A DNA stretch of 63,928 bases, the filler included, from Folioceros fuciformis (lineage: Eukaryota): assembly GCA_049999805.1 (NCBI GenBank). It is 11 parts of 11 records of this genome, joined end to end, with 100 filler letters (N's around TTAATTAATTAA, not from the genome) between each part and the next. Parts side by side here need not be neighbours in the genome. Positions count along the whole stretch, not along the records: positions 8,907 to 13,039 come from JBNGIO010001133.1; 10 more parts are not named here. One strand, 5' to 3'. Shown here piece by piece: positions 8,807 to 60,781 of the stretch (the stretch's first letter is position 1; the number at the start of each line of letters is the position of its first letter). Made by a program: the position numbers and the translations under genes. Below the pieces are notes generated by a model. It did no database searches. It saw only the letters and a list, made by a program, of their open reading frames with translations, and was not told where the DNA came from.

Positions 8807-8906
8807 NNNNNNNNNNNNNNNNNNNNNNNNNNNNNNNNNNNNNNNNNNNNTTAATTAATTAANNNNNNNNNNNNNNNNNNNNNNNNNNNNNNNNNNNNNN
8901 NNNNNN
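8807..8906. other. Artificial contig-joining spacer (first of ten)
   Basis: 44 N + TTAATTAATTAA (stops in all six frames) + 44 N. Identical spacers at 13040, 20657, 29791, 34127, 42406, 46978, 53841, 58516 and 60782. Confidence 0.98.
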
Positions 8907-8935
8907 TGCAAAGGAATTGAGTAAAAGCCTGGCCG

Positions 8936-9064
8936 AAGATGATAGCTTGTGTTAGGAAAACCGTAGGGCTGTTCCAAGACCAGACCACAACTGGGCCACC
9001 AAAGATGATAGCTTGTATTAGGAAAACCATAGGGCTGTTTCAAGGCCAGACCACAACTGGGCCA
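8936..9064. repeat. 66-bp direct duplication
   Basis: AAGATGATAGCTTGT...CAGACCACAACTGGGCCA occurs twice. Confidence 0.85.
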
Positions 9065-9149
9065 TGGAAGGGGGTCTTGGTGAGTGGGGGGAGGGAGGTT
9101 CTAGTGCGGCCAAGAGGACATAAGAGGCTTCGTTGAATACAAGATTATC

Positions 9150-9600
9150 TTAGGATGTGGTCCTTCATGATCCAATAATGTATGGGCAAACTTGTTGTCT
9201 ATGAATGGATAACTCAGGCTTCGTGCATACCCTGTGCATGTTCAACCGTTGCCAGATACTACTACTTTCTCGGAACGTAGGATCATGAACCCTTGCAGGT
9301 GCTATACAAGAAACATCAATGAACAATTTATTGAAATCACATATGGCCTGTAGTGTAATAGCATGCATCTCCTTACAACACCAATATGCCGCAGGATCCT
9401 ATCTTGCAGAAGGCTTCTTGTGCAAGGGAATGATCCTCTCTTGCAAAAGGCTTCTTGTGCAAGGGAATGATCCTATCTTGCAGAAGGCTTCTTGTGCAAG
9501 GGAATAAATGAGCCATTAAGTGCACCAACACAATTACATAAGCCAGTTTCTTGTACGAACCTTGCTGTCACAACTTGCAAACGAGGTCCCATGGGCATAG
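9150..9600 (-). mobile_element. PIF/Harbinger (DDE_Tnp_4/HARBI1-type) transposase relic
   Basis: Minus-strand translations RFVQETGLCNCVGALNGSFIPL and HAITLQAICDFNKLFIDVSCIAPARVHDPTFRESSSI...PYIIG match Harbinger motifs GAIDGTHI, LQAVCD..FIDV...PGSVHD and YILGD. Interrupted by a 37-bp tandem repeat at ~9395-9505. Confidence 0.8.
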
Positions 9601-9619
9601 ATATGTATCGTCCTCCAAG

Positions 9620-11449
9620 TTTCTGTCCATGAACAAAATGTCTAGCACAAGTTAGATGAGGTCTTTAGCTTGTGGGAAAGGGGGGAGCTTCCGGAACAAG
9701 GTAGCAGGAAGAAGGTGAGCAAACGGGGAGAAATAAGAAGAGGAAATGTAGATGCAGAGTCAACAGTTAGAGACCCTTACCGTCTTATTAAACCGATGCA
9801 TAGTATTGCATGGAGGGTGTTCTAAGGTATTTCCACTAGGGAGGCAAGGGATCGTATCATGATATCCACTCTCAAAAAATTCGTCCAAGGGGAGTTGATG
9901 GTGAGCGGTATGAAAACCTATATCACGAAGGCAAAGAAATTGAATATCATTCAGACCGCCTTTTGTTCTAGTTTACAGTGCGCATCATTTGTAGAGGTTG
10001 AGCTGGAATACCCAAAGCACTCCACTCTGGAAGACATCGCGAAGTTCCAGCCAATATTTGATTACATCGTAAGCATGCTAACCCCAATGTGACATTATGT
10101 GTGATGGGCGTGAACTTGGGCGTGCCATGTCCTAAGCATTAACACGTTGTCCCAATGTTGTGCAAACCTTCCGACAAGCCGAGGAATACAAGGAGAAGGT
10201 TATTCCCAACCCCTTCAAAGAGCATATCAATGTAGCTTGAAATTGAGAGAGAATCAAGGACTTGCAACGAGAATTAGCAAAAGAGGACAATGATGCAAAA
10301 CTATCGATATCTCATGTCCCTAGCAGCAAACAAAAGGTGAAGTACCCGGTTGTAAATGGTAATCTCAAAGAAATGGCTGCATACTTGGGCAAGCGAGAGT
10401 ACTAGCTGCTAATATTCGACATGCCAAGAGGGAACTATGGAGAACCTTGGGATAAGGAGTTTACTCCGGATTTCATGGAGAAAATAATGGAGGGGTTTTT
10501 CAAAGTCACCAAGTGTCAAACTTTCAGGGTTGTCTACATGCACGGTCCAAATCAAATGCAGGATGTTAGAGACGGGTTGCGGAAGTGGTGTGCAAAGGGA
10601 GAAGTTCAAACTAGGGTTAGGGAAAAAGACAATGTAGCCGTAGATGAGGGGTTGTACGGGAACTACAAGGACATGATAGTCGGATTTGGAGGTCATCCAT
10701 TAAATGACGATATCCGAAAGAGTAGTGTGCTGAGGAACAGTGCGGCGAAGGAGATGGGGGCAATGCTTGGGATCATCAAGCACAGTACCATCATCAAAAA
10801 GTTGCTCAACATATCAAATGATAGATGAGTCATAAATGCTTATTAGAAGCCGCTGGGGTTGATGGTTATATTATGTGGGCTTTTCAGCAATCGAGGAGAA
10901 TGGATCATAGATGGATGCTTTGGGAGCAGGAGTGGTGTTCAGGCCGCACTAATGGAGGGTCAAAATTGTATTGCCATTGACCGAGACCAGAGGCATACCA
11001 TCTTCATCGAGCAGAGAATCACGGGCCATGAAGTGTTTCCATCAAACGAGGAGAAATTGACTACAAAGCCTCACACACGAGGTCATTCGCTTTTCTTTGC
11101 TTGAGAACTTTCGAGTGGAAGGGTAGTGAAACAAAGGACTCACGTAATGCAAATGGTGGAAGGGAAGACTACACCAAGGGACATCGAAAAACTCAGTAAA
11201 ACGCAAGGACATACGAAGAAGAAGACCAAGGGAAGCGGAAAACAAGCTGATCATGCACCCCCTGAAGATTTTACAAAGGCGGTGCTGGGGTTCTCGGATG
11301 ATGACACACGGGATGAGGAGCAACTTGAAACCTTCTCTTCTGACCCTTCACTAATGTCTGCAGAAGATGGTAACCAAGACTCTAGAATGTTACCAAGCCA
11401 CAAAGAGATGAGGGACGACATCATTATTCCAATGATAGAGCACAAATAA
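9620..11449 (+). pseudogene. Decayed ORF ending in a beta-class DNA amino-methyltransferase (N6-adenine/N4-cytosine) domain
   Basis: One frame from ~10400 to 11449 with in-frame stops reads Y*LLIFDMPRGNYGEPWDKEF (motif IV-like) ... VINAY*KPLGLMVILCGLFSNRGEWIIDGCFGSRSGVQAALMEGQNCIAIDRD (motifs X, I, II). Upstream coding-like segments run from ~9620 to 10092 in another frame. Confidence 0.72.
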
Positions 11450-12868
11450 TCTCTGCTGCATGAAGGGTAGGTAGTGTCGTATGAGACAATAGCAGAAAAA
11501 ATAGCGGGTGCACCACAGAGTTTTGTGAACTTTGAAATATGTGCTTTTGTTTCACAAGAATGTCATAACCAAGACTTGTTGGGAATCCACTCTTGCAAAA
11601 CGTCTATTTTGAAACCCGCGATGCACTAAATGCCAAGTGTGGCGAGCCCAGTAATAGTATAATTTTTGGAGTGTAAGAAGCAGAGTAATGTGCACACAAA
11701 AACTGGAAAGAAGCGTCAGCGGATAGACGCGGAATGTTTGAGACAACGTTTAATGCTTATGTTACGATAATGTTGATGCAAATGACAAAACCCTTATACA
11801 GGCTTGTGTCATAACCCCTTGTAGAATGTTCTAGAATAGTAGAAATCCATCATTCACAATGTAATAAAACTTTGCTCGTTGTTGTAGTGTGTGGTTCGCA
11901 TCGAGGCCAGCCTAAGCTAGTAAAGAGTTGGCCCTACTAGCCGTGATTGGTCCTAAGGCTGGCCTCAAGGTTAGGTAGTTCCTTCCATGGCCAACTCCGA
12001 GGTCAGGCCTTTTCCTTCATGACTAACCATGAGGCTTATCCTCTCCACCCACGCCCAACCTTGAGCAATTTGAGGTTCGGCCTAGGTTTCGGCAATGACC
12101 AATCTTAGGCAATTTGAGGTGATTTGGGCCTAGTTACCGATTGTGGCCAGCCAAGAGGCCAATTCAAGCCAGGCTTGGTCCTCGATTCTCGTGTAGATGA
12201 GTGGCTAACAAGGTCTGTTGTAAAAGGGGTTTCTCCTCGATTTAAGGGTTTCATGGAAAATGCAAACCTATTTGTTCCCGATTTAGTATCTTCCTTTTTT
12301 TAAGACAAATTTGTAGATGTTTGGCAATGATGACCTTGGGCTTATATGAAAGTAGTTACATGCCATACCAAATGTTTATATAAGGTTGGTATAATTCCAA
12401 ATTGAGTGAATATGAATATGAAGCATGGCAAATGATAAATAAACTTGTCAAAAAAGTTTGTTTTCGGCATGTTTATGTTATCTTGAAATGCTATGGATTT
12501 ATTCTTTTGGATCCCACTCAGATGGGTGAAGTGCATAAGTGCTCGCTTGATATGGAATGTAGTGACTCACCTCTTTCTCTACCTCATTTCTCTCCATCTC
12601 TTCCTCCACCTTGTGAGTTAGAGTATGGAGGTATTTAAGATGTTGTAGCGACCTTAAATGCCATAAGAAATGGCTGACCAAGGGGCTAAGGATTCGAATC
12701 CTAATCCTAGGGTTTCATTGTCTTTTAATCACCCTATGTTTAAGAGCTTTTAAATCAATCTACTTATATGTAGAAGTGCGCATTAGAAGCCAACTTCTTG
12801 CTTGGAGCATGCCCATGGTCACAAGTGTGCACCGTGACCTAGCTGGTATGTGCTTTTGCGTGCCATGA

Positions 12869-13039
12869 TTCGGTTGGTACGCACTTGTGCATGCCATAAA
12901 CTAGCTATCATGCATTTTAAGCGCATATTGGTGAAAATAAACTCCTAAAAAAAAAGTAAAAACACCCAAAGAAATCTTGTTTCGGTTGGTACGCACTTGT
13001 GCATGCCATAAACTAGCTATCATGCATTTTAAGCGCATA
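12869..13039. repeat. Exact 59-bp direct repeat at contig end
   Basis: 12869-12927 is identical to 12981-13039. Confidence 0.85.
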
Positions 13040-13139
13040 NNNNNNNNNNNNNNNNNNNNNNNNNNNNNNNNNNNNNNNNNNNNTTAATTAATTAANNNNN
13101 NNNNNNNNNNNNNNNNNNNNNNNNNNNNNNNNNNNNNNN

Positions 13140-15232
13140 CCCTCATGCTGCCCTCCACTGACCCCCTCATGCTGCCCTCCACTAACCCATTCATGCTGCC
13201 TGCTCGGGAGGTACTGGAAAGAAGCTGGCGCCGGTCCTACAGGTGGAGGGGATCCCCAATAGGGCCCCTCAGAGGCAACCGCACACCTCTCAACAAACTG
13301 GTTTTCTCCTGTGTCCGAGAAAGATCCAGATGGAAGTCCTGAACCTGGTATCGATCTGGAAGCCACAGGATGAACTCCATCACCAAAGGAAGGAGAGACT
13401 CCCGCCCTGTATCCGTCAGCAGCAACAGCTGATCCTGCACTCCACGGCCTTGCACCATCGCCACTCCCTGGCCTTCCACCACCACCACTCCCTGGCCTTC
13501 CACCACCGGCACTCCCTGGTCTGGGGCTGGGAGCCCTGGTCCTGTGCACCTCCCCACTAGAATCTGACCCGTAATACTCTTTACCCGCCCGAGAGCTGCT
13601 GCCATGGTCGCTGGACGAGGAACTTCTCCTCCTATGCTGGTGCTGGTGCTGGTGCTTGTCAAAAACTCCCACACCAGCAAACGGCACATTCACACCGGTA
13701 GCCTCCCATACTGGATACGCATCCTCACCCACCGGATAGGCGTCCTCACCCACCGGATAGGCGCCCTCACCCACTGGATAGGCGTTCTCACCCACTGGAT
13801 AGGCGCCCGCACCCACTGGATAGGCGTCCTCGGCCACAGGATACGCATCCTCAGCCACTGGATACGCATCCACCCCTGCTTCAAAATCTCCACTCTGCTC
13901 CGCATATCCAATCCCCGCTGGATCCCTTTCCCCGATTCCGGCACCAGCATACTCAGGTCCATACCCGTACCCACCTCCATCCCCACGCTCAAACCCATTC
14001 CCACCATTCCCGTACCCATTCCCATCATTCCCGTACCCATTCCCACCATTCCCGTACCCATTCCCACCATTCCCGTACCCATTCCCACCATTCCCGTAGC
14101 CATTCCCACCATTCTCGTACCCATTCCCACCATTCCCACTATTCCCACCATTCCCACCATTCCCACCATTCCCATCCCCATTCCCTCCTTGTCCCACGTG
14201 CCGCGACCCACCTCCTAGCCCAGGTTCCTGAGGAGGAACATGGGCACCCAGCTTCTGCAAAACCCTGTGCACATGCAGAGCCGCCAACTCTGGGGAGGGA
14301 GCCAATGGATGCCCCCTCTGATGCTCATGGCACCAGCGGGCGATATCCTGGGCCACCCCGATGTTGGGGATGCAAACGCTGCTCTCCATGGGGATGTTCT
14401 TCCTGAGGCAGAAGCGCTGGCCCGCCTCGAACCAGGCCTCGAAGCAGCGCTTCTCGTAGGCGACCCCAGAGGACACCGTCACCGGCTCCGCCATGAGGCC
14501 CATCGAGATGGGGCACGTCAATTCCGTGGGCGGAACAGCATCCTCCGACCCAGGTGCAAACCCGTCGGGCGCAATCACATCCCCCGGCCCCATGTTCCCC
14601 CCTTGAACCTGGACCTGGCCCCGTCCACCATACCCACCCGCCGCAGCCGGCTTCTCGGTCCCTGGGTAATCCGATTCCACCTTGCTCCCCTTCTTCCTGA
14701 ACAAATTCCTGAGCCTGAATCTCTCCTTGGCAGGAGCAGCAGCAGCACCACCCCCACCACCAACAGCAGGTGCACGTGCAGGTGCAGCCGGAATCGGAGC
14801 GTGCAAAGGTGAAACCGGAACAGGAGCTCCTGGAGGGAACGATGCAGCTGGAGCACGCGATGGAGCTGGACCATGCGATGGAGCTGGAGCATGCGACGGA
14901 GCTGGAGCATGCGATGGAGCTGGAGCCGGAGCTGGAGTATAGGGGGGTTGAGGATGGGGAGCTGCACTCGGGGCTGGAGTGTAAGCGGGGCGAGGAAGGG
15001 GAGCTGCACCCGGAGCTGGAGTGTAAGCGGGGCGAGGAAGGGGAGCTGTACCTGGAGCTGGACTGTATGCGGGGCGAGGAAGGGGAGCTGCACCTGGAGC
15101 TGGAGCGTGATGGGGATCAAAGCCGTGCATGCCAGGGGCGGGAGGCCAGGCTCCTACTGCCCCCTCGTTCCCATAGGAATCGGCAGGCCTGGGGGCAGGC
15201 GCGCCCAAGTTGAGATTCCTGAAGGCGCCCAT
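13140..15232 (-). CDS. Plant U-box E3 ligase with long low-complexity repeats (3' end lost at contig edge)
   Basis: U-box at ~14320-14536: VPPTELTCPISMGLMAEPVTVSSGVAYEKRCFEAWF...CIPNIGVAQDIARWC. Flanked by Pro-rich, NGGNGYG and DAYPVGE repeats; frame is open up to the gap. Confidence 0.85.
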
Positions 15233-16887
15233 GGCCGCCTGCTTCTACTGCCCTGCGCTGCCGCCTACTACCCGATAGGCGCACATCCCGCTGTCTGCCG
15301 CACCGCCCACAGGAACCCACAACCTGAACAGATGGAGAGACGGAGCCTTGGCCCCATCGGGGGATAAAAAGCCCGGAAAGGCAGACGCAAGAAGTTTGCG
15401 AATGCGCGTGTCCGTGTCCCTGACCCGCACGGCAGTCACCCATGGTCAAGGTAGAAAGAGAGAAAGTCGCGTTGATTCCTCCGGAGTCGCGGACTCCTCC
15501 TCCTTCCTTCCCAGCATCCGGGAAGCGCAGACTAAAAGCAAATCAGCAGGGCCCGCGCCCACCTTCCCTCACACCCAGCCAAAGCAGACGGAGCCCTTGC
15601 GTCTTCGACGCATCCCGTGCCAGGCTGCCATTGCGCAACTGGAGGGAGGTGCGTCCATTTCTCATATCTTCTGCAGGCATGCCGCACTTCTGGTGGGGCC
15701 GACGACTCTCCCTAAATAGAACCCACATCGCCTCCTCTCCTTGGACCTCATCATTCTAGGGTAGATTCCCCTGCTCTTTGCATTGGTGCCCAGAGGTGGA
15801 CCTCCCCTCCGCCTCCACCACTCCATCTTCGCCGCGCCTTCCTCCATGCCTCTTCAACAAGGCTGCTGGCCAAGAAGCCGCGCCTGTGCCAGACTCTGCT
15901 CTGCTCTGCTGTGCTCCGCTTGCTACCAGGCCCCCTTTGCCTCGGATTTGTCCCACCACGAGCTCGCTTGATGCATCCCGATTCCCCTTTCAGTTGTGGG
16001 CGACCGGACACTCCACATGGCCCTTTCACGCGCCGCACGTTCGCCCTCACCACCCTTTGTCTGCACATTCGTTTCCACCTACAGTACTGTACATACCACT
16101 TACAACAGCATGCTCATCCACACATCCCACATGGTGCCGTATGTACTTATGTATGTATGTCATGAGTCTTCAGTCTTGTGATGTACATTAAAACTCATAA
16201 TAATTTATTACTATAAACTAACCTACTTTGCGCTACGTTAAAGAGATTATTAGTGGAGTGAGCTAAGCTGAGCTTAACTTCAATTTAACCTTCCTGTTTC
16301 TGCACTTTGAGATTGTATGTTCATGAACCATGTTCATGCTACAAAGCCCATGACTCTTAGAAGAACTTTTTTTAGTTCTATCTACTTTTTAAAAAATTTA
16401 AAAAAATAAAAAGAATTGTTCAAGTAAAAGATAGTTCAAGGTTTTAATTTGATGAAATAAATACGGATTTCTTGCAAAAACATTCAAGAAAATAAAAGTA
16501 AATAACATAACATGATCATTTTTCTTGGCATGCAACAAAATGTGGAAAACAGAACTGTTATTGGCTAGAATGAAGTAGCAACACGTTATGCATTAAGAGA
16601 AGCAAGAAGAGTTGATTTGGTTGAACTTGTGAGAGCTACATTTCTATGTGGAAGGATGAATGGAACTCAAAGTTCAGCTATGTTGAGACACAATAAGTTG
16701 TTGGGATAACTTCATCGCTGTCTAATGCTATGTTATTTGTGAGGCTGAGAAATTTGATGGATGATCAACAACACAAACTTTAGCAACATTCAACATCGAA
16801 AAGTTTAGCAGCAAGCAACATTTTATACTGTAGCTTATCGGCTTCTTATTGACTTTGATTGTCTTGGTCTTTGGATGTATGGTGAAA

Positions 16888-49461: not shown

Positions 49462-50725
49462 ATGGATCCAGTAGATGAGAATAACGATGATTGTATTCTT
49501 TGTACGGAATTGTTTGTAAATGAAACCTGGGTGTCTTTGCATCCTTGTAAGCATAGTTTCCATGCATCTTGCATAGCTAAATGGTTTTTTTAGTAAAGTA
49601 AATAAGGAAGATCACGAAAAACTTGAGCCAGAATTTGAAAGGCGTTGTGCAATTTGCCGAACCTACTGGACCCTAGATGGCGCACCACAGCAAGTTCTTA
49701 ACCTAAACAATAAAATGGAAGGTACTAATGCAGACGTAGATAGTGAGCTAATTAAAATCCTAGAGGCACATAAGAAGGAAGTCTTAAAACATGTGGAGGA
49801 AAGAGAAAATGAAGATAGACAATTAGTACTTAACCAGGAACTAAATCCAGTGAATGAATCACAGGATAGCTGTGCACTTTGCAATGAGAGAATGTGGTGT
49901 GAGAATTGGTGTAGAGTGGATCCTTGTAGGCATGTCTTTCATGTTAAGTGCCTCATGTTCCACATAACACAAGACTTACCAATAAACACATTCCCTATCA
50001 TTCTTTGTCCTTACAGAGAATGTAACCAACCAATCCATTTTCAACAACCAACAAGATGGTTGGGTTTTACTTTCCATGTTCGACCTTGGATTACTCCAAA
50101 TGATATGCATTGTGAACGATTTCGTCTCAATTCTGAAGAAGTAGGGCAACTTCTAATGTGGGCTATGGTATTTAATGCTTTTGTAAATAGAAGGGATGCT
50201 GAGCTAGGGGCTTTGCTCATTGAACAGAAGGACAATCCTAATGACATATGGAGGGAGTTCAAAAAGGATAAAACATTTTCATGTTTGGAAGTACAACAGA
50301 TTTGCTTCAAGTGTCAGGATCCACTAGCATGTTGCTCATGGATTCAAACTTCTTGTAGCCACCCATTTCATTTCCAATGTGTGTTTAAAATATTGGAGCA
50401 TAACGAAACTGTATGTCCTCTATGTGGTTTAAACCTCATGACTGTACACTCTTTACCTAGTAATGTTGTGTGGGTACCCTTTACAACTCGAATTAATGGA
50501 CATAAAAAAGAAAAACGTGAAGTGATTTTGTGGTGGTTAGAAGATTTGAGGCAAAACCATAGGCTTCAAGGAGAGGAAGTCCAAATCGAACAAGCTATAG
50601 GTGACAACCAAATGGGCATTTTGGAGACAATGAATCAAGATCTGGCACAAAGGGAGGAACACGAGTACTGGGCTCAATTTGCAGAGTACTGGGATCGATT
50701 TATAGAAGAATTTGCTTTAGACTAA
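49462..50725 (+). CDS. Triple-RING family copy B (one-base frameshift in T7 run at 49585-49591)
   Basis: MDPVDENNDDCILC...PCKHSFHASCIAKWFF. Removing one T gives SKVNKEDH...CAICRTYWTLDG, which joins ORF 49715-50725 carrying two more RINGs. Confidence 0.8.
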
Positions 50726-52124: not shown

Positions 52125-53351
52125 CTAGTAATTTGTAGGATCCAAAAATGACATAATTTCATTTTCCAAAATTGGCCAACTTTCATCATCGTTATCATCA
52201 CTACTCCCACCATTACTAGAACTCCAGTCATAACTAAGGTGTCCATGTAACATGTCTTTACAAGTCTCCAAATCCCATAGCCACCATATGACCACTTCTC
52301 GTATCTGATTCCTACTTCCATTGATTCTTTTGAGTAAAGATACCCATAAGACATCAGGAGGTTGTGGGTGCTCGATGACAAGACATAATCCACATATTGG
52401 ACATATTTGATCTTCATCATCCTCAAGCAAATCAAACAGACATTCAAAATGGAAAGCATGACCACATGGAACCAAGAGCCAGTAATTACATGCTAATGGA
52501 CTTTCACATAGAAAGCAAATTTGCTGTAATTCTAAAAATGAGTGGCTCTTAGATGTGATAAACTCTTGCCGAACATCATCAGCCAAATCACAAAATTTCT
52601 TTATAAGCTCATCTATCTCCTTGTCCCTCCTTTTTACAAGGAGGTGATAAGTGTGAGCCCACAATACCACTTGTTTTACCTCCCAGGAATGATCACAAAT
52701 GGGTAAAAACTCCATGTCATCTGGGTATATATATGGGCGAACGTAAAAAACATGTAACCATTTTAAAGGATCTTCAATGTGAATAGATAAACTACACTCT
52801 CTGTTAGGACAATGAATATCAGGGACTTCACTACAATCCAGCCTCAAAATGTGCTCAACAAAGCATATCACATGAAAAGCATGTCTACAAGGATCTAGTC
52901 TACACCAAAAGCCATGGACAAATGTCTGGTTGCAAAGTACACATAAGTCTTTCATTTGGTCAATTGGATTTGATAACTCATTCATAGCTATTTGTGTTTG
53001 TGCTAATGTGACTCTACTTTGCTCAACGTCGATAGTTTTCCTATGATTTTCCAGCAATTCATTCAATGCCTTGCCGACTTCTGCATTGGTGACTTCCTTT
53101 CTATTCTTTGGCTCATGAACTTGTGTAGGAGATCCATCTAAGCTCCAAACACTTCGACAAGTTGGGCATTGCTTTCTAAGAGGTGGGTCTGGATTATTCA
53201 TGTCTTCTTCTTCAATAGTGCTATAAAACCACTTTGCCACACAAGCTGCATGGATACTGTGATGACATGGATGTAAATACACCCATGGTTCATTTGCAAG
53301 CACTTCTGAACAAAGAAGACAATCGTCATTGTCCTCATCAGCAAGGTTCAT
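52125..53351 (-). CDS. Triple RING-H2 protein, intronless, 408 aa (copy C, intact)
   Basis: CLLC..PCHHSIHAAC..CPTC; CVLC..PCRHAFHVIC..CPNREC; CFLC..PCGHAFHFEC..CPIC. Confidence 0.88.
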   Translation of the reverse strand: MNLADEDNDDCLLCSEVLANEPWVYLHPCHHSIHAACVAKWFYSTIEEEDMNNPDPPLRKQCPTCRSVWSLDGSPTQVHEPKNRKEVTNAEVGKALNELLENHRKTIDVEQSRVTLAQTQIAMNELSNPIDQMKDLCVLCNQTFVHGFWCRLDPCRHAFHVICFVEHILRLDCSEVPDIHCPNRECSLSIHIEDPLKWLHVFYVRPYIYPDDMEFLPICDHSWEVKQVVLWAHTYHLLVKRRDKEIDELIKKFCDLADDVRQEFITSKSHSFLELQQICFLCESPLACNYWLLVPCGHAFHFECLFDLLEDDEDQICPICGLCLVIEHPQPPDVLWVSLLKRINGSRNQIREVVIWWLWDLETCKDMLHGHLSYDWSSSNGGSSDDNDDESWPILENEIMSFLDPTNY

Positions 53352-53988
53352 TTTTCGTCAATTTTCTTCTTAGTTCATATACTTCTTCTATACATTCAAC
53401 TATGATAAGTATCCAAAATTTTAGTATATTTACTAAGTATTAATACTTGAGAGCAAGACAAAACACAATTAGCAGCCTCCTCCTTAACCACAAGATGCTA
53501 TTCACTTGCATGTTGCTTTCTAATTATTAAGTCTTATAGTTACAAGAAATTTGAATATATTTATGAAACTCCTATAACTAAAATAAAGAAATCCCTAGAT
53601 GATTTGTTCCCTTCTCCATCACAAGATGGTGAGCACTTGCAAGTCCTATTGACGAAATTTGACATTTCAATTCAATTTTCTTTTTCTTTTTTTCATTTAA
53701 AAGAGGCTAATGCATGGGCCTCATTTAGCTTGAAGACAAAAGATTTTATTTTAAGTAATTCATCTAACCCTAAAGGATCTACCCAAAAAGATTGAATTCA
53801 AAACATTTCTACCCATACACTTATATTAGGGGATATGCACNNNNNNNNNNNNNNNNNNNNNNNNNNNNNNNNNNNNNNNNNNNNTTAATTAATTAANNNN
53901 NNNNNNNNNNNNNNNNNNNNNNNNNNNNNNNNNNNNNNNNCTCCTAGAGAGCTCATCAGTCACGGCCAGTTCATTTGACACCCATCTG

Positions 53989-58615: not shown

Positions 58616-60781
58616 CAACATACTCGGCCTCTGTGGTAGATAGCGTTATGCATGATTGCAAATGAGATCGCCATGAGACTGCCCCTCCTGTGCACATGAA
58701 GATGTAACCTGATGTGGACCTCCTTTTGTCCATATCCCCTGCATAATCAGCATCCGTATATCCCACGACAGATGCATCTTCACTACCAAAACATAAGCAC
58801 AAAGCTTTTGTACCATTCAAGTACCTCATAACTCCTTTCACTGCCTCCCAATGCTTCCTGCCAGGGTTTGACATAAACCTGCTAACCACTCCCACTGCAA
58901 AGGCAATGTCAGGACGTGTAGCAATCATTGCATACATCAAACTCCCTGCAGCTGATGAATATGGAACCTTCTCCATTTCAGCTTTGTCCTCCGCAGAGCT
59001 TGGGCAATCCTTGCTCGACAGTTTCACATCTGGAGGCAACGGAGTACTTAATACCTTCCCCTTCTCCATATTGAAACGTTGAAGCACCTTGTTAATGTAT
59101 TCAGTCTGAGACAAGTGCAGCAAATGTTTCTGTCTGTCGCGACGAATACGCATGCCAAGAATATGGCTTGCCTCTCCCAAGTCTGTCATGTCAAAGCGAC
59201 CATTCAACTTTGACTTCAACGTTGAAATCTCATCACTGTTAGTCCCAGCAATTAGCATATCATCGACATAGAGGACCAAAATGAGCAAGCTTCCATCCTT
59301 AGCTTGCTTCGTATAGAGGCAATGATCCTCATCGCTACGCTTGTAGCCTTGAGAAAGCATAAATGAGTGGAACTTGAAATACCACTCTCTGGGTGCCTGC
59401 TTCAAACCATAACGGCTCTTCTTTAACCTGCACACCAGATTCTCTTTGCCCTTCTCAATGAAACCCTCTGGTTGTTGCATGTATACCTCTTCCTGGAGAT
59501 CACCATGCAAAAATGCCGACTTCACATCCATCTGGACAAGTTCCATGTCGAGCCTCGCAACCAGACCAAGAACACATCGCAAGGTGGTCATTTTGACAAC
59601 CGGTGAGAAAATCTCATCAAAGTCAATACCTTGCTGTTGCTTAAAACCCTTCGCAACCAATCGTGCCTTGTACTTGGGTTTGCCATAATGGGGTATGTCC
59701 TTCATCTTATACACCCATTTGCACGGCAACTCCTTCTTGCCCTTAGGCAACCGAACCAACTCCCAAGTTTGGTTCTTGTGGAGCGAATCCATCTGCGACT
59801 GCATCGCCTTCTTCCACTTGTCCTTATGAGTCACTGACATGGTCTCTTGGTAACAAGAGGGCTCCCCACAATCCGTCAGCATGACATAATCAAGAGATGC
59901 AACATACCTGTCAGGAGGACGTGAGATCCTTCCTGACCTGCGAAGTACTGGCGCCTCGACCGGAGCTGGTTGCACTCTTTCCTCTTGTACAAGTGGAGGA
60001 ACTTGTTCCTGCACATCACGACGTTCAATCTGCGCAGGACGGTCAAGTCCATCTTCTTGGAAGACCACCCATCGCACCTCCACAGTTGGAGTAGGTTTCT
60101 TGTGCATCTTGGTCTCATTGAAGAACACGTCATTGCTGCGAACCATCCTCTTGGCTTCTGGATCCCAAAGACGGTATCCCATCTCACCAGATTCACCATA
60201 GCCAAGAAAAATACATTTCTTGGACTTGGGTGCCAACTTGTCCCGAAACTCCTTCGGAACATGGTAGTATGCCTCGCAGCCAAATACTCGTAGATGCTTG
60301 TATGACGGCTTCTTTCCAAACCACATCTCTTCTGGAACCTGTTCATCCACAGCCCTATTAGGAGATCTGTTAATAAGATGCACCGCAGTAACCACTGCTT
60401 CTGCCCAAAATCCGTTAGTCAATCCAGAGTTTGACAACAAACTACGCATCCTCTGTTGGATGGTCCTGTTCATCCGTTCGGCCACACCATTTTGGGGAGG
60501 AGTATATGGGGCAGTCAATTCTCTCCTGATTCCCTTGGAATCACAGAATGACTGGAAAGTCTTCGAAACATACTCTCCCCCATTGTCTATCCTTAGACAT
60601 TTCAGTCGCAGGCCAGACTGATTCTCCACAAGGGTGACGAACTTCTGAAACACTGTCAGAACATCATTCTTTTTCCTCAAAGGATAAACCCACACCTTGC
60701 GTGAGAAATCATCTATGAAAGTGACAAAATAGGATGCACCGCCTAACGATACAGTGGGCATAGGTCCACAAACGTCACTGT
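58616..60781 (-). mobile_element. Ty1/Copia pol (integrase-RT-start of RNase H), uninterrupted frame
   Basis: YFVTFIDDFSRK, DNGGEY, TPPQNGVAERMNRT, LRVFGC, KARLVAKG, QMDVKSAFLHG, YVDDML, YTDADYAG; integrase precedes RT. Confidence 0.98.

What the first reader, a model, noticed from the sequence alone, without database searches (positions are those of the whole stretch)
9150..11449. Bacterial-type DNA amino-methyltransferase relic head-to-head with a Harbinger transposase: candidate methyltransferase-carrying DNA transposon
Seen: an intronless plus-strand frame (~10400-11449), broken by stops that look like C->T decay (TAG where Q is expected). It has a motif-IV-like LLIFDMPRG..PWDK followed ~145 codons later by NAY(Q)KPLGLM..LFSNRGEWIIDGCFGS(R)SG..AAL.EG.NCIAID. 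Known: catalytic motif IV preceding 'xQKP..S..G..VLDPFxGSG..AA...GR..IGIE' is the beta-class order of prokaryotic N6-adenine/N4-cytosine MTases. Such enzymes are not standard plant genes; horizontally acquired 4mC enzymes are known in Marchantia and bdelloid rotifers. Seen: minus-strand Harbinger homology stops at ~9600, where the plus-strand coding-like sequence begins, so both appear 5'-truncated at one point. Inference: one internal deletion in a single element encoding both a transposase and an amino-MTase, which could self-mark or modify host chromatin. Canonical Harbingers carry only a transposase and a Myb/SANT protein. This copy is dead, and DMPR departs from (D/N/S)PP(Y/F).
Basis: partly seen in the sequence, partly recalled or inferred. 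Interest (0 to 1): 0.85.

Follow-up and report, generated by a model that had tools for sequence, protein, structure and literature searches.

The report
Dead methyltransferase gene beside Harbinger fragment
A broken copy of a bacterial-type DNA methyltransferase gene, from a little-described family also found in a stonewort and in Ginkgo, sits fused to a broken Harbinger transposase gene, but nothing shows that the two ever formed one mobile element.

Summary
Frame +2, 10175-11215, matches a profile of 16 relatives built without the window at 187.6 bits. Of 71 relatives, 67 hit Pfam PF01555. A model of relative P0005 has the beta-class N6A/N4C methyltransferase fold, with CcrM the top match.

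The gene runs upstream to about 9613. There a "middle domain" of the long forms (Chara braunii, Ginkgo biloba) is recognisable, probably joined through a 97-nt intron. At about 9610 it abuts a minus-strand DDE_Tnp_4 fragment.

DMPRG is not decay. Four intact relatives carry DLPRG, and the family motif is D-x-P-[Y/H/R]-G.

This copy is dead, with eight in-frame stops and a G-to-R change in the SAM motif. The window is a chain of unplaced contigs, so only 8907-13039 is real context. That contig holds no TIR, TSD or Myb ORF, and no relative carries a transposase domain.

A single Harbinger-plus-methyltransferase element is therefore unproven (about 0.15). More likely two independent sequences were joined by a deletion. 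PF01555 cargo on red-algal DNA transposons is already in print.

The parts
8907..13039 (.). Focal contig (4133 nt). It is bounded on both sides by artificial linkers, so it is the only real physical context.
   Evidence: N44+TTAATTAATTAA+N44 linkers at 8807-8906 and 13040-13139, and at 8 further places in the window.
8933..9064 (.). Two copies of a 66-nt tandem repeat, where the transposase homology ends on its 3' side.
   Evidence: D3, 92% identity.
9104..9664 (-). Dead fragment of a PIF/Harbinger-type transposase (DDE_Tnp_4). It covers the middle of the protein only, in three frames, and is truncated at both ends.
   Evidence: 9165-9398 scores 24.9 bits against a cut-off of 24.8, profile positions 20-70 of 158; frames. 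Atlas clusters DDE_Tnp_4/Plant_tran, Streptophyta, score 0.96.
9395..9505 (.). Three tandem copies of a 37-nt unit that break the transposase frame.
   Evidence: D2, 95-100% identity.
9600..9625 (.). Breakpoint where the 5'-truncated transposase (minus strand) meets the 5'-truncated methyltransferase gene (plus strand).
   Evidence: plus-strand homology begins at frame +1 residue 236, which is nt 9613, at model position 317 of 776; transposase frame; an X2 contig of 1397 nt spans 9476-10872 with 0 differences.
9613..10068 (+). Remnant of the helical 'middle domain' of the long-form proteins, probably exon 1 of what is left. Stops at 9643 (TAG) and 9823 (TAA).
   Evidence: 44.0 bits, E 2.4e-15 for six frames, model positions 317-485; hhalign aligns the same region, but weakly (probability 8.7%); stops.
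10069..10165 (+). Probable 97-nt phase-0 intron. The donor is GTAAGC. The acceptor now reads AA rather than AG. This is inferred.
   Evidence: removing it gives one continuous match of 159.0 bits over model positions 317-737; another copy's contig loses likeness upstream of 10156.
10166..11449 (+). Methyltransferase domain (10175-11056) and charged tail, one frame with no frameshift. Stops at 10238, 10244, 10403, 10826, 10844 and 11102. The natural stop is at 11447.
   Evidence: 187.6 bits; 70 of 70 relatives used in tblastn hit 10172-11215; stops.
10418..10432 (+). Motif IV variant D-M-P-R-G.
   Evidence: Four intact relatives have DLPRG. Sixteen have D-x-[P/C]-Y (13 of them D-x-P-Y-G), one has H, two have C.
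10835..10852 (+). N-A-Y-(TAG)-K-P. The stop replaces the invariant Q of the family's N-x-Y-Q-K-P.
   Evidence: Q702 and K703 invariant in 16 relatives..
10910..10936 (+). SAM-binding motif I, D-G-C-F-G-S-R-S-G. The middle glycine of G-S-G is replaced by R (AGG).
   Evidence: Relatives have [SA]G[ST]G.
10613..10633 (+). V-R-E-K-D-N-V. The nearly invariant W of the family's W-x-K-x-N is replaced by R.
   Evidence: W125 and K127 nearly invariant..

Best explanation
The plus-strand frame is a dead, 5'-truncated paralogue of a eukaryotic gene family.

The family. Intact long forms have three parts: a conserved N-terminal domain, a helical middle domain, and a beta-class (PF01555) SAM-dependent DNA amino-methyltransferase domain. 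Named members are in Chara braunii (3 proteins) and Ginkgo biloba. The others come from unnamed eukaryote-like contigs.

Likely activity (inferred). Fold and motifs suggest that intact members transfer a methyl group from SAM to the exocyclic amino group of a flipped-out adenine (N6) or cytosine (N4) in DNA. The domain alone does not say which base. The window belongs to a subclade in which Arg replaces the aromatic residue of motif IV (D-[L/M]-P-R-G). Whether that subclade is active is open.

This copy. It keeps the middle domain, a probable intron and the methyltransferase domain. It lacks the N-terminal 40% of the long form. It carries 8 stops, a G-to-R change in the SAM motif and a W-to-R change, so it encodes nothing.

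The junction. At about 9610 it is fused head-to-head to the middle of a dead Harbinger-type transposase. The most likely history is that two independent sequences in a repeat-rich, CG/CHG-methylated region were brought together by a deletion or rearrangement that removed both 5' parts. One is a methyltransferase paralogue, either a host gene or cargo of some other element. The other is a Harbinger copy. They were not two genes of one transposon.

Shown: homology, fold, motifs, breakpoint, decay. Inferred: enzymatic activity of intact members, the intron, the order of events.
For: Homology:
- 66 relatives at E<=1e-3.
- A profile built without the window scores 187.6 bits on frame +2.
- A long-form profile also scores 44.0 bits on frame +1, 9613-10128.
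- 67 of 71 relatives hit PF01555 at E<=1e-3. Nine of the 10 best are above the gathering score; P0012 is below it at 25.0 bits.

Fold: AlphaFold model of P0005, pLDDT 84.3. Foldseek finds CcrM 6pbd at E 2.5e-15, then M.RsrI, M.BceJIV, M.MboIIA, M.PvuII and the rotifer N4CMT.

Named members: Ginkgo Gb_37443; Chara CBR_g3587, g66820, g8267.

Eukaryotic nature: a probable spliceosomal intron. Prokaryote and IMG/VR scans found matches only around motif I.

Subclade: the window groups with the DLPRG proteins, SH-aLRT 85-91.

The junction is real in reads: an X2 contig covers 9476-10872 with 0 differences, and an X1 contig covers 9476-9682.

Independence of the two halves:
- 39 of 59 contigs laid from X1 are under 95% alike.
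- Bins with more than the exact-match contig's depth lie over 9183-9734 and 10149-11252. Bins 9735-10148 and 11253-11942 hold one exact contig's depth only.
- None of 71 relatives has a transposase domain.
- There is no TIR pair and no Myb/SANT ORF, 0 of 10 ORFs.

Methylation-type decay: CpG o/e 0.54.
Against: - The two homologies abut within about 15 nt, head to head. An internal deletion of a two-gene element would give exactly this.
- PF01555 genes are documented cargo of DNA transposons in red algae (passages of bioRxiv 10.1101/2025.02.11.637652). Cargo status of this family is therefore plausible.
- Chara has three near-identical, partly degenerate paralogues. That looks more like a mobile or repeated element than a single host gene.
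- No whole genome was available, so co-occurrence with Harbinger in other copies could not be tested at all.
- Summed contig depth is not a copy number, as the tool itself warns.
- The junction support comes from the same sample as, probably, the assembly.
Confidence: 0.68

Rival explanations
1. A single Harbinger-type DNA transposon carried both a transposase and this methyltransferase gene, divergently transcribed. One internal deletion removed both 5' ends.
For: Both genes are truncated at one point, about 9610, in head-to-head orientation. PF01555 accessory genes occur in red-algal Plavaka, Mutator and other DNA transposons and are said to move between TE families. HarbingerS elements are cited there as carrying a SET accessory gene (passages of bioRxiv 10.1101/2025.02.11.637652). 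Several diverged copies of both pieces exist in the same run.
Against: The contig has no TIR/TSD and no Myb/SANT ORF, 0 of 10 ORFs. None of 71 relatives has a transposase domain in the same protein. The stretch next to the junction, 9735-10148, has no diverged copies at 85% likeness or more, while both sides do. Nested insertion followed by deletion gives the same picture and is common in repeat-rich DNA (established knowledge, not tested here).
Confidence: 0.15
2. The methyltransferase family is cargo of a different mobile element, for example a large CACTA/Plavaka- or Mutator-type transposon or an endogenous virus. A Harbinger inserted into it and a deletion followed. This is a special case of the best explanation, listed to give its share.
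For: Partly degenerate, near-identical paralogues in Chara. Several diverged copies in the source run, some with internal skips. The red-algal precedent. The nearest look-alikes of the methyltransferase domain are phage PF01555 clusters and PHROG phrog_67.
Against: No genomic context of any relative could be fetched. Each of the 10 best relatives was seen on 1 contig, and no listed cluster member on more than 2. Likeness among copies seems limited to the conserved coding exon, 10156 to about 11250. That pattern fits old paralogues under selection better than young TE copies. IMG/VR scans found no full-length relative.
Confidence: 0.3
3. Assembly chimera. The junction at about 9610 is a misjoin of two repeats.
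For: The contig is a short, unplaced, repeat-rich piece in a chain of contigs. Both sides of the junction are repeated sequence.
Against: Logan contigs of two runs, built by another assembler, cross the junction without a difference: X2 over 9476-10872 and X1 over 9476-9682. They come from one sample, probably the source of the assembly.
Confidence: 0.04
4. Bacterial or phage contamination, or a chance resemblance to methyltransferase motifs.
For: The window's own Pfam hit is weak, E 0.074. The domain is of prokaryotic type.
Against: A family profile scores 187.6 bits. The closest relatives are eukaryotic, from Chara and Ginkgo. Further signs are a probable intron, a plant-type transposase on the same contig and CpG depletion. 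Prokaryote and virus scans give only motif-I matches.
Confidence: 0.01

Closest known systems
Bacterial and phage beta-class N6-adenine/N4-cytosine DNA methyltransferases (Pfam PF01555; CcrM, M.RsrI, M.MboIIA, M.PvuII)
   Same: Same fold and permuted motif order: catalytic motif IV comes before x-Q-K-P and the SAM-binding G-x-G. The relatives pass the Pfam cut-off.
   Different: Motif IV is D-x-P-[Y/H/R]-G instead of (D/S)-P-P-(Y/F). The signature is N-x-Y-Q-K-P instead of the H-P-T-Q-K-P of the bacterial hits. The family has eukaryote-specific N-terminal and middle domains and a probable intron. In the tree the bacterial-type hits form a separate group, SH-aLRT 97.
Plavaka accessory gene 2 (PAG2) of red-algal giant DNA transposons
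   Same: A PF01555 domain in a eukaryotic genome, linked with DNA transposons and proposed to modify DNA or chromatin (passages of bioRxiv 10.1101/2025.02.11.637652).
   Different: PAG2 has a SET domain; 0 of 71 relatives here have one. PAG2 sits in EnSpm/Plavaka, Mutator and other elements of red algae, whereas this family is in streptophytes. No sequence comparison was possible. The PAG2 sequences are in supplements that I could not see.
Marchantia MpDN4MT1a/b and the bdelloid rotifer N4CMT (horizontally acquired 4mC enzymes)
   Same: Prokaryote-derived beta-class amino-methyltransferases that are resident in eukaryotic genomes. The N4CMT structure is among the fold matches, 8s9o at E 3.3e-10.
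   Different: MpDN4MT1 carries TSPPY (passages). N4CMT has a chromodomain and is said to have no eukaryotic homologues (passages of PMC8885841). The family here has D-x-P-[Y/H/R]-G and other accessory domains. No alignment with either was made.
Dam-type (MethyltransfD12) adenine methyltransferases of DIRS and LTR retrotransposons
   Same: Prokaryote-type DNA amino-methyltransferases co-opted by eukaryotic mobile elements (abstract and sections of bioRxiv 10.64898/2026.05.21.726589).
   Different: They belong to another methyltransferase family with an Asn-Pro-Pro catalytic triplet, in retrotransposons rather than DNA transposons. PF01555 does not occur in that text.
PIF/Harbinger DNA transposons
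   Same: The minus-strand fragment matches DDE_Tnp_4, the Pfam family of the transposase.
   Different: It is only an internal fragment of the transposase. No TIR, TSD or Myb/SANT ORF was found.

Membership tests
PF01555 N6_N4_Mtase (beta-class amino-methyltransferases) | Match to the Pfam profile above the gathering score | tested here: not met
   The window's read-through scores 13.4 bits against a cut-off of 26.7, E 0.074. The copy is too decayed to pass on its own.
PF01555 N6_N4_Mtase (beta-class amino-methyltransferases) | Homology to proteins that are themselves members | tested here: met
   A profile of 16 relatives scores 187.6 bits on the window. 67 of 71 relatives hit PF01555 at E<=1e-3. 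Nine of the 10 best are above the gathering score.
PF01555 N6_N4_Mtase (beta-class amino-methyltransferases) | Permuted order: catalytic motif IV lies N-terminal to SAM-binding motif I | tested here: met
   DMPRG at 10418, NAYxKP at 10835 and DGCFGSRSG at 10910, in the same order as in all aligned relatives.
PF01555 N6_N4_Mtase (beta-class amino-methyltransferases) | Catalytic motif IV (D/N/S)-P-P-(Y/F/W) (consensus recalled) | tested here: not met
   The window has D-M-P-R. The family has D-x-P-[Y/H/R]-G. The first Pro is never kept, and the aromatic residue is R in the window's subclade, in 4 intact relatives.
PF01555 N6_N4_Mtase (beta-class amino-methyltransferases) | Intact SAM-binding glycine motif | tested here: not met
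   The window reads G-S-R-S-G, with AGG for the middle glycine. Relatives have [SA]-G-[ST]-G.
PF01555 N6_N4_Mtase (beta-class amino-methyltransferases) | Beta-class methyltransferase fold | tested here: met
   Tested on relative P0005, not on the window: pLDDT 84.3. Foldseek finds CcrM at E 2.5e-15 (TM 0.64), then RsrI, MboIIA and PvuII.
PF01555 N6_N4_Mtase (beta-class amino-methyltransferases) | DNA methyltransferase activity and base specificity (6mA or 4mC) | not testable with these tools
   This needs expression of an intact member and methylation read-out. The domain has switched between 6mA and 4mC repeatedly (passage of PMC8885841).
PIF/Harbinger transposon | DDE_Tnp_4 transposase | tested here: met
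   24.9 bits against a cut-off of 24.8, for a fragment only covering profile positions 20-70 of 158. Atlas look-alikes agree.
PIF/Harbinger transposon | Terminal inverted repeats with a 3-bp TWA target duplication | tested here: inconclusive
   No convincing inverted-repeat pair in the contig; the best is 23 nt at 74%. The contig is a 4.1-kb fragment, so the ends may lie outside it.
PIF/Harbinger transposon | Second ORF with a Myb/SANT-like domain | tested here: not met
   0 of 10 further ORFs over 11254-12865 and 0 of 7 ORFs have such a domain.
   No genome is held. Metagenome scans found no relatives.
MpDN4MT1 / rotifer N4CMT type 4mC enzymes | TSPPY-type motif IV | tested here: not met
   D-x-P-[Y/H/R]-G in the window and in all aligned relatives. 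TSPPY is reported for MpDN4MT1.
Red-algal PAG2 | PF01555 domain fused to a SET domain | tested here: not met
   0 of 71 relatives have a SET hit at E<=1e-3.

The most novel reading that the evidence does not exclude
Streptophytes (Chara, Ginkgo, this organism) harbour a so far undescribed, mobile-element-borne family of beta-class DNA amino-methyltransferases. The family has two kinds of member. One keeps the aromatic residue of motif IV (D-x-P-Y-G). The other replaces it with Arg (D-L-P-R-G). The two might work as a catalytic and non-catalytic pair, as in METTL3-METTL14. The window would then be a deletion derivative of a Harbinger-type transposon that carried such a gene to mark its own or host DNA with 6mA or 4mC.
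Probability: 0.12. Interest if true: 0.8.

Novelty: new variant of a known kind. Interest (0 to 1): 0.45.

Why it matters
Whether plants have 6mA or 4mC, and which enzymes would make it, is disputed. This locus is dead, but it points to intact genes. Ginkgo Gb_37443, three Chara braunii genes and several unnamed ORFs have a confident beta-class methyltransferase fold, an unusual catalytic motif and two eukaryote-specific domains. These are concrete candidates to express and assay.

If the family proves to be transposon cargo, the red-algal finding of PF01555 accessory genes would extend to the green lineage. It would add a case of mobile elements carrying their own DNA-modifying enzymes.

In my searches of the held library I found no description of a PF01555 family in streptophytes other than Marchantia DN4MT1. 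One search found 45 papers with PF01555, N6_N4_Mtase or IPR002941, of which I saw the 40 listed. Searches added nothing. Subscription-only papers were not searched.

Tried and rejected
**Searches with the window sequence alone**
- Word-indexed protein search: 0 hits among 1741 candidates.
- PDB by sequence: only urea transporters at E 0.19-0.93, taken as chance.
- NCBIfam: CcrM at 13.3 bits against a cut-off of 830.

**Genome and context**
- No whole genome is held.
- Metagenome contigs, two scans with A3 and P0022: no relative. The context of P0022 (8.9-kb contig) could not be fetched.
- IMG/VR: A3 and A4 gave none. A5 gave 5 loci, which matched only residues 217-294 around motif I.
- Prokaryote genomes: 19 loci, mostly residues 236-294 only. 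I did not study these loci further.

**ParB-like idea for the N-terminal domain of the long forms** (my own reading of the G-G-G-H-S-R-E-A-R motif)
- 0 of 10 long forms hit ParBc. One of 10 hits DUF6551 at E 0.019.
- A profile search of the PDB found only methyltransferases.
- The AlphaFold model of P0006 is poor there, pLDDT 30-60 over residues 1-200, so no fold search was made.
- The idea is not supported. I first misread GISTREAR at 9826 as that motif. Searches show it belongs to the middle domain.

**Expression and earlier work**
- No RNA holder was listed among the runs. The run guessed to be RNA (X4) laid nothing.
- Earlier findings of this scan: nothing by place, sequence or words.

**Named relatives of the DLPRG subclade**
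- None. Only unnamed Logan contigs.
Full report
**What the window is.** The 63,928-nt window is not one stretch of chromosome. Ten identical linkers (44 N, TTAATTAATTAA, 44 N) chain 11 contigs. The finding lies in a contig of 4133 nt, 8907-13039. Nothing outside it is physical context. Other contigs carry a U-box gene, RING/PHD ORFs, a prenylcysteine-lyase-like ORF and an open Ty1/copia pol ORF. This is eukaryotic, plant-like content. No whole genome is held for the window.

**The observation.** The motifs stand as described:
- D-M-P-R-G at 10418-10432.
- N-A-Y-(TAG)-K-P at 10835-10852, 139 codons later.
- D-G-C-F-G-S-R-S-G at 10910-10936.

Alone, the read-through translation gives only weak database hits. 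Pfam PF01555 scores 13.4 bits against a gathering score of 26.7, E 0.074. NCBIfam CcrM scores 13.3 bits. The word-indexed protein search found nothing, and the PDB sequence search gave only chance hits.

The exhaustive HMMER scan of 1.84 billion representatives settled it. It found 66 proteins at E<=1e-3 and 8 at E<=1e-10, the best at 2.6e-27. A profile built from 16 of these, without the window, hits frame +2 of the contig over 10175-11215 at 187.6 bits. All 70 relatives used in tblastn hit the same place. Of 71 relatives, 67 hit PF01555 at E<=1e-3. Of the ten best, nine pass the gathering score and one (P0012, 25.0 bits) does not.

An AlphaFold model of the compact relative P0005 (pLDDT 84.3, pTM 0.84) finds beta-class enzymes first. 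These are CcrM (E 2.5e-15), M.RsrI, M.BceJIV, M.MboIIA, M1.HpyAVI, M.PvuII and the rotifer N4CMT. METTL3 follows further down. The frame is therefore a true relic of a beta-class amino-methyltransferase gene.

**The family.** Named members are Ginkgo biloba Gb_37443 (P0006, 670 aa) and three Chara braunii proteins: CBR_g3587, g66820 and g8267 (P0074-76). The rest come from unnamed contigs.

Long forms (P0006, P0022, P0073-76, P0039, P0061) share three parts: a conserved N-terminal domain, a helical middle domain and the methyltransferase domain. I suspected the N-terminal domain to be ParB-like from its G-G-G-H-S-R-E-A-R motif. That did not hold up:
- 0 of 10 long forms hit ParBc. One of 10 hits DUF6551 at E 0.019.
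- A PDB profile search found only methyltransferases.
- The model of P0006 is poor in that part.

The family signature is N-x-Y-Q-K-P, whereas the bacterial-type hits have H-P-T-Q-K-P. Motif IV is D-x-P-[Y/H/R]-G. By my count from the motif lists:
- 16 distinct proteins keep Y at the fourth position (13 as D-x-P-Y-G; P0032, P0043 and one further differ at another position).
- 1 has H (Ginkgo).
- 2 have C (Chara paralogues).
- 1 has D-I-P-S-T.
- 4 intact proteins have D-L-P-R-G (P0003, P0004, P0005, P0057).

In a quick maximum-likelihood tree the window falls with the D-L-P-R-G proteins (SH-aLRT 85-91, not starred; the window's branch is long). The bacterial-type hits form a separate group (SH-aLRT 97). 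It is a conserved trait of a subclade.

Scans of prokaryote genomes and of IMG/VR found only matches around motif I. The nearest look-alikes of the domain are phage PF01555 clusters and PHROG phrog_67. That fits a prokaryotic or phage origin long ago.

**The gene in the window.** A profile of ten long forms matches frame +2 (109.2 bits). It also matches frame +1 over 9613-10128 at 44.0 bits, model positions 317-485 of 776. That is the middle domain. hhalign aligns the same region, but weakly, at probability 8.7%.

The two frames can be joined by removing 10069-10165. That stretch starts with GTAAGC at a codon boundary and ends with AA where AG is expected. The result is one continuous match of 159.0 bits over model positions 317-737. 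In the laid contigs another copy loses likeness just upstream of 10156. I read this as a 97-nt phase-0 intron. It is inferred, not shown.

So what remains of the gene is 9613-11449. The N-terminal 40% of the long form is missing. There are eight in-frame stops and no frameshift. At four stops the relatives have W or Q, one transition away:
- 9643: W in 7 of 8 long forms.
- 9823: Q in 3 of 8.
- 10244: W in 3 of 5.
- 10844: the invariant Q.

The SAM-motif glycine is R (AGG), and the nearly invariant W of W-x-K-x-N is R. CpG o/e in the contig is 0.54. The copy is dead.

**The transposase and the junction.** Minus-strand 9165-9398 hits DDE_Tnp_4 at 24.9 bits against 24.8. Its Atlas look-alikes are DDE_Tnp_4/Plant_tran clusters of Streptophyta. 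Further pieces lie in other frames at 9476-9664 and 9104-9241. A triple 37-nt tandem repeat at 9395-9505 interrupts them. Only the middle of the transposase is present.

Its 5'-most recognisable part ends at about 9610-9664, and the plus-strand gene begins at 9613. Contigs that Logan assembled from two runs cross it without a difference: X2 over 9476-10872 and X1 over 9476-9682. A misjoin is therefore unlikely. Those runs are from one sample that may be the source of the assembly.

Against one element:
- The contig has no inverted-repeat pair worth the name.
- It has no Myb/SANT ORF, 0 of 10 further ORFs.
- None of 71 relatives has a transposase, reverse transcriptase or SET domain in the same protein.
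- In the laid contigs, 39 of 59 pieces from X1 are under 95% alike. They pile up over 9183-9734 (transposase) and 10149-11252 (methyltransferase exon). Bins 9735-10148, next to the junction, and 11253-11942 hold the depth of a single exact contig.

The two halves thus have relatives elsewhere in the run, but the stretch that links them does not. Likeness among the methyltransferase copies seems confined to the conserved exon. That pattern fits older paralogues better than young copies of one composite transposon.

For one element:
- The geometry is exactly what an internal deletion would give.
- PF01555 accessory genes do ride on DNA transposons in red algae. There they are reported to move between Plavaka, Mutator, Zisupton and Fanzor-bearing elements (passages of bioRxiv 10.1101/2025.02.11.637652).
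- Chara's three near-identical, partly degenerate paralogues look like repeated DNA.

Summed contig depth is not a copy number, and no genomic context of any relative could be fetched. I put the single-element reading at about 0.15. I put [quoted passage not shown] at about 0.68. Within that, the methyltransferase family may still be cargo of another kind of element (about 0.3 overall).

**How it compares with what is known.**
- It works like, and descends from, beta-class PF01555 enzymes. It fails the classical motif IV test.
- It is not of the MpDN4MT1 type, which has TSPPY.
- It is not the rotifer N4CMT, which has a chromodomain and is said to have no eukaryotic homologues.
- It is not PAG2, because no relative has a SET domain.
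- The Dam-type enzymes of DIRS and LTR retrotransposons belong to another family.

In the held library I found no description of this streptophyte family. Papers outside that library, and all supplements, were not seen.

**Verdict.** The locus is a real but dead relic, and the proposed methyltransferase-carrying Harbinger is unproven. What deserves follow-up is the family itself. It has intact members in Chara and Ginkgo, an unusual catalytic motif and a conserved Arg-bearing subclade.

Noticed in passing
window 8807-8906, 13040-13139 and 8 further places: The window is an artificial chain of 11 contigs joined by N44+TTAATTAATTAA+N44 linkers. Neighbouring 'genes' across a linker are not neighbours in the genome.
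   Followed up: yes
window 9755-9850 (run X3): Run X3 of the same sample looks bisulfite-converted (C>T 194, G>A 76, other changes 3 or fewer each). In one of its contigs all 12 CHH cytosines of 9755-9850 read T. The 4 CHG and 2 CG cytosines are not listed as changed. This suggests CG and CHG 5mC over this repeat. The table of differences was cut, so this is a hint only.
   Followed up: partly
window 58617-60779 (-): An open 721-codon Ty1/copia pol ORF fills a whole short contig: rve, SH3_retrovirus, and RVT_2 at E 2.8e-73.
   Followed up: no
window 13142-15244 (-): A 701-codon open frame with a U-box domain (E 3.6e-10). It is flanked by proline-rich repeats, G-N-G-Y repeats and (D/E)AYPV repeats, in a 62% G+C stretch.
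   Followed up: no
window 49577-50725 (+) and 52125-53357 (-): Two ORFs on one contig with RING-H2 and PHD-like zinc fingers, in opposite orientation.
   Followed up: no
window 8933-9064, 9395-9505, 12866-13039: Short tandem or near-tandem repeats in the focal contig: 2 x 66 nt, 3 x 37 nt, and 2 x 62 nt at 112-nt spacing. The 37-nt triplet lies inside the transposase frame.
   Followed up: partly
proteins P0074-P0076 (Chara braunii): The three Chara paralogues are near-identical but differ by internal deletions, a D-F-P-C-G/R motif IV and an S-R-S-G motif I in P0074. P0074 has an extra 430-residue N-terminal part without any Pfam hit.
   Followed up: partly
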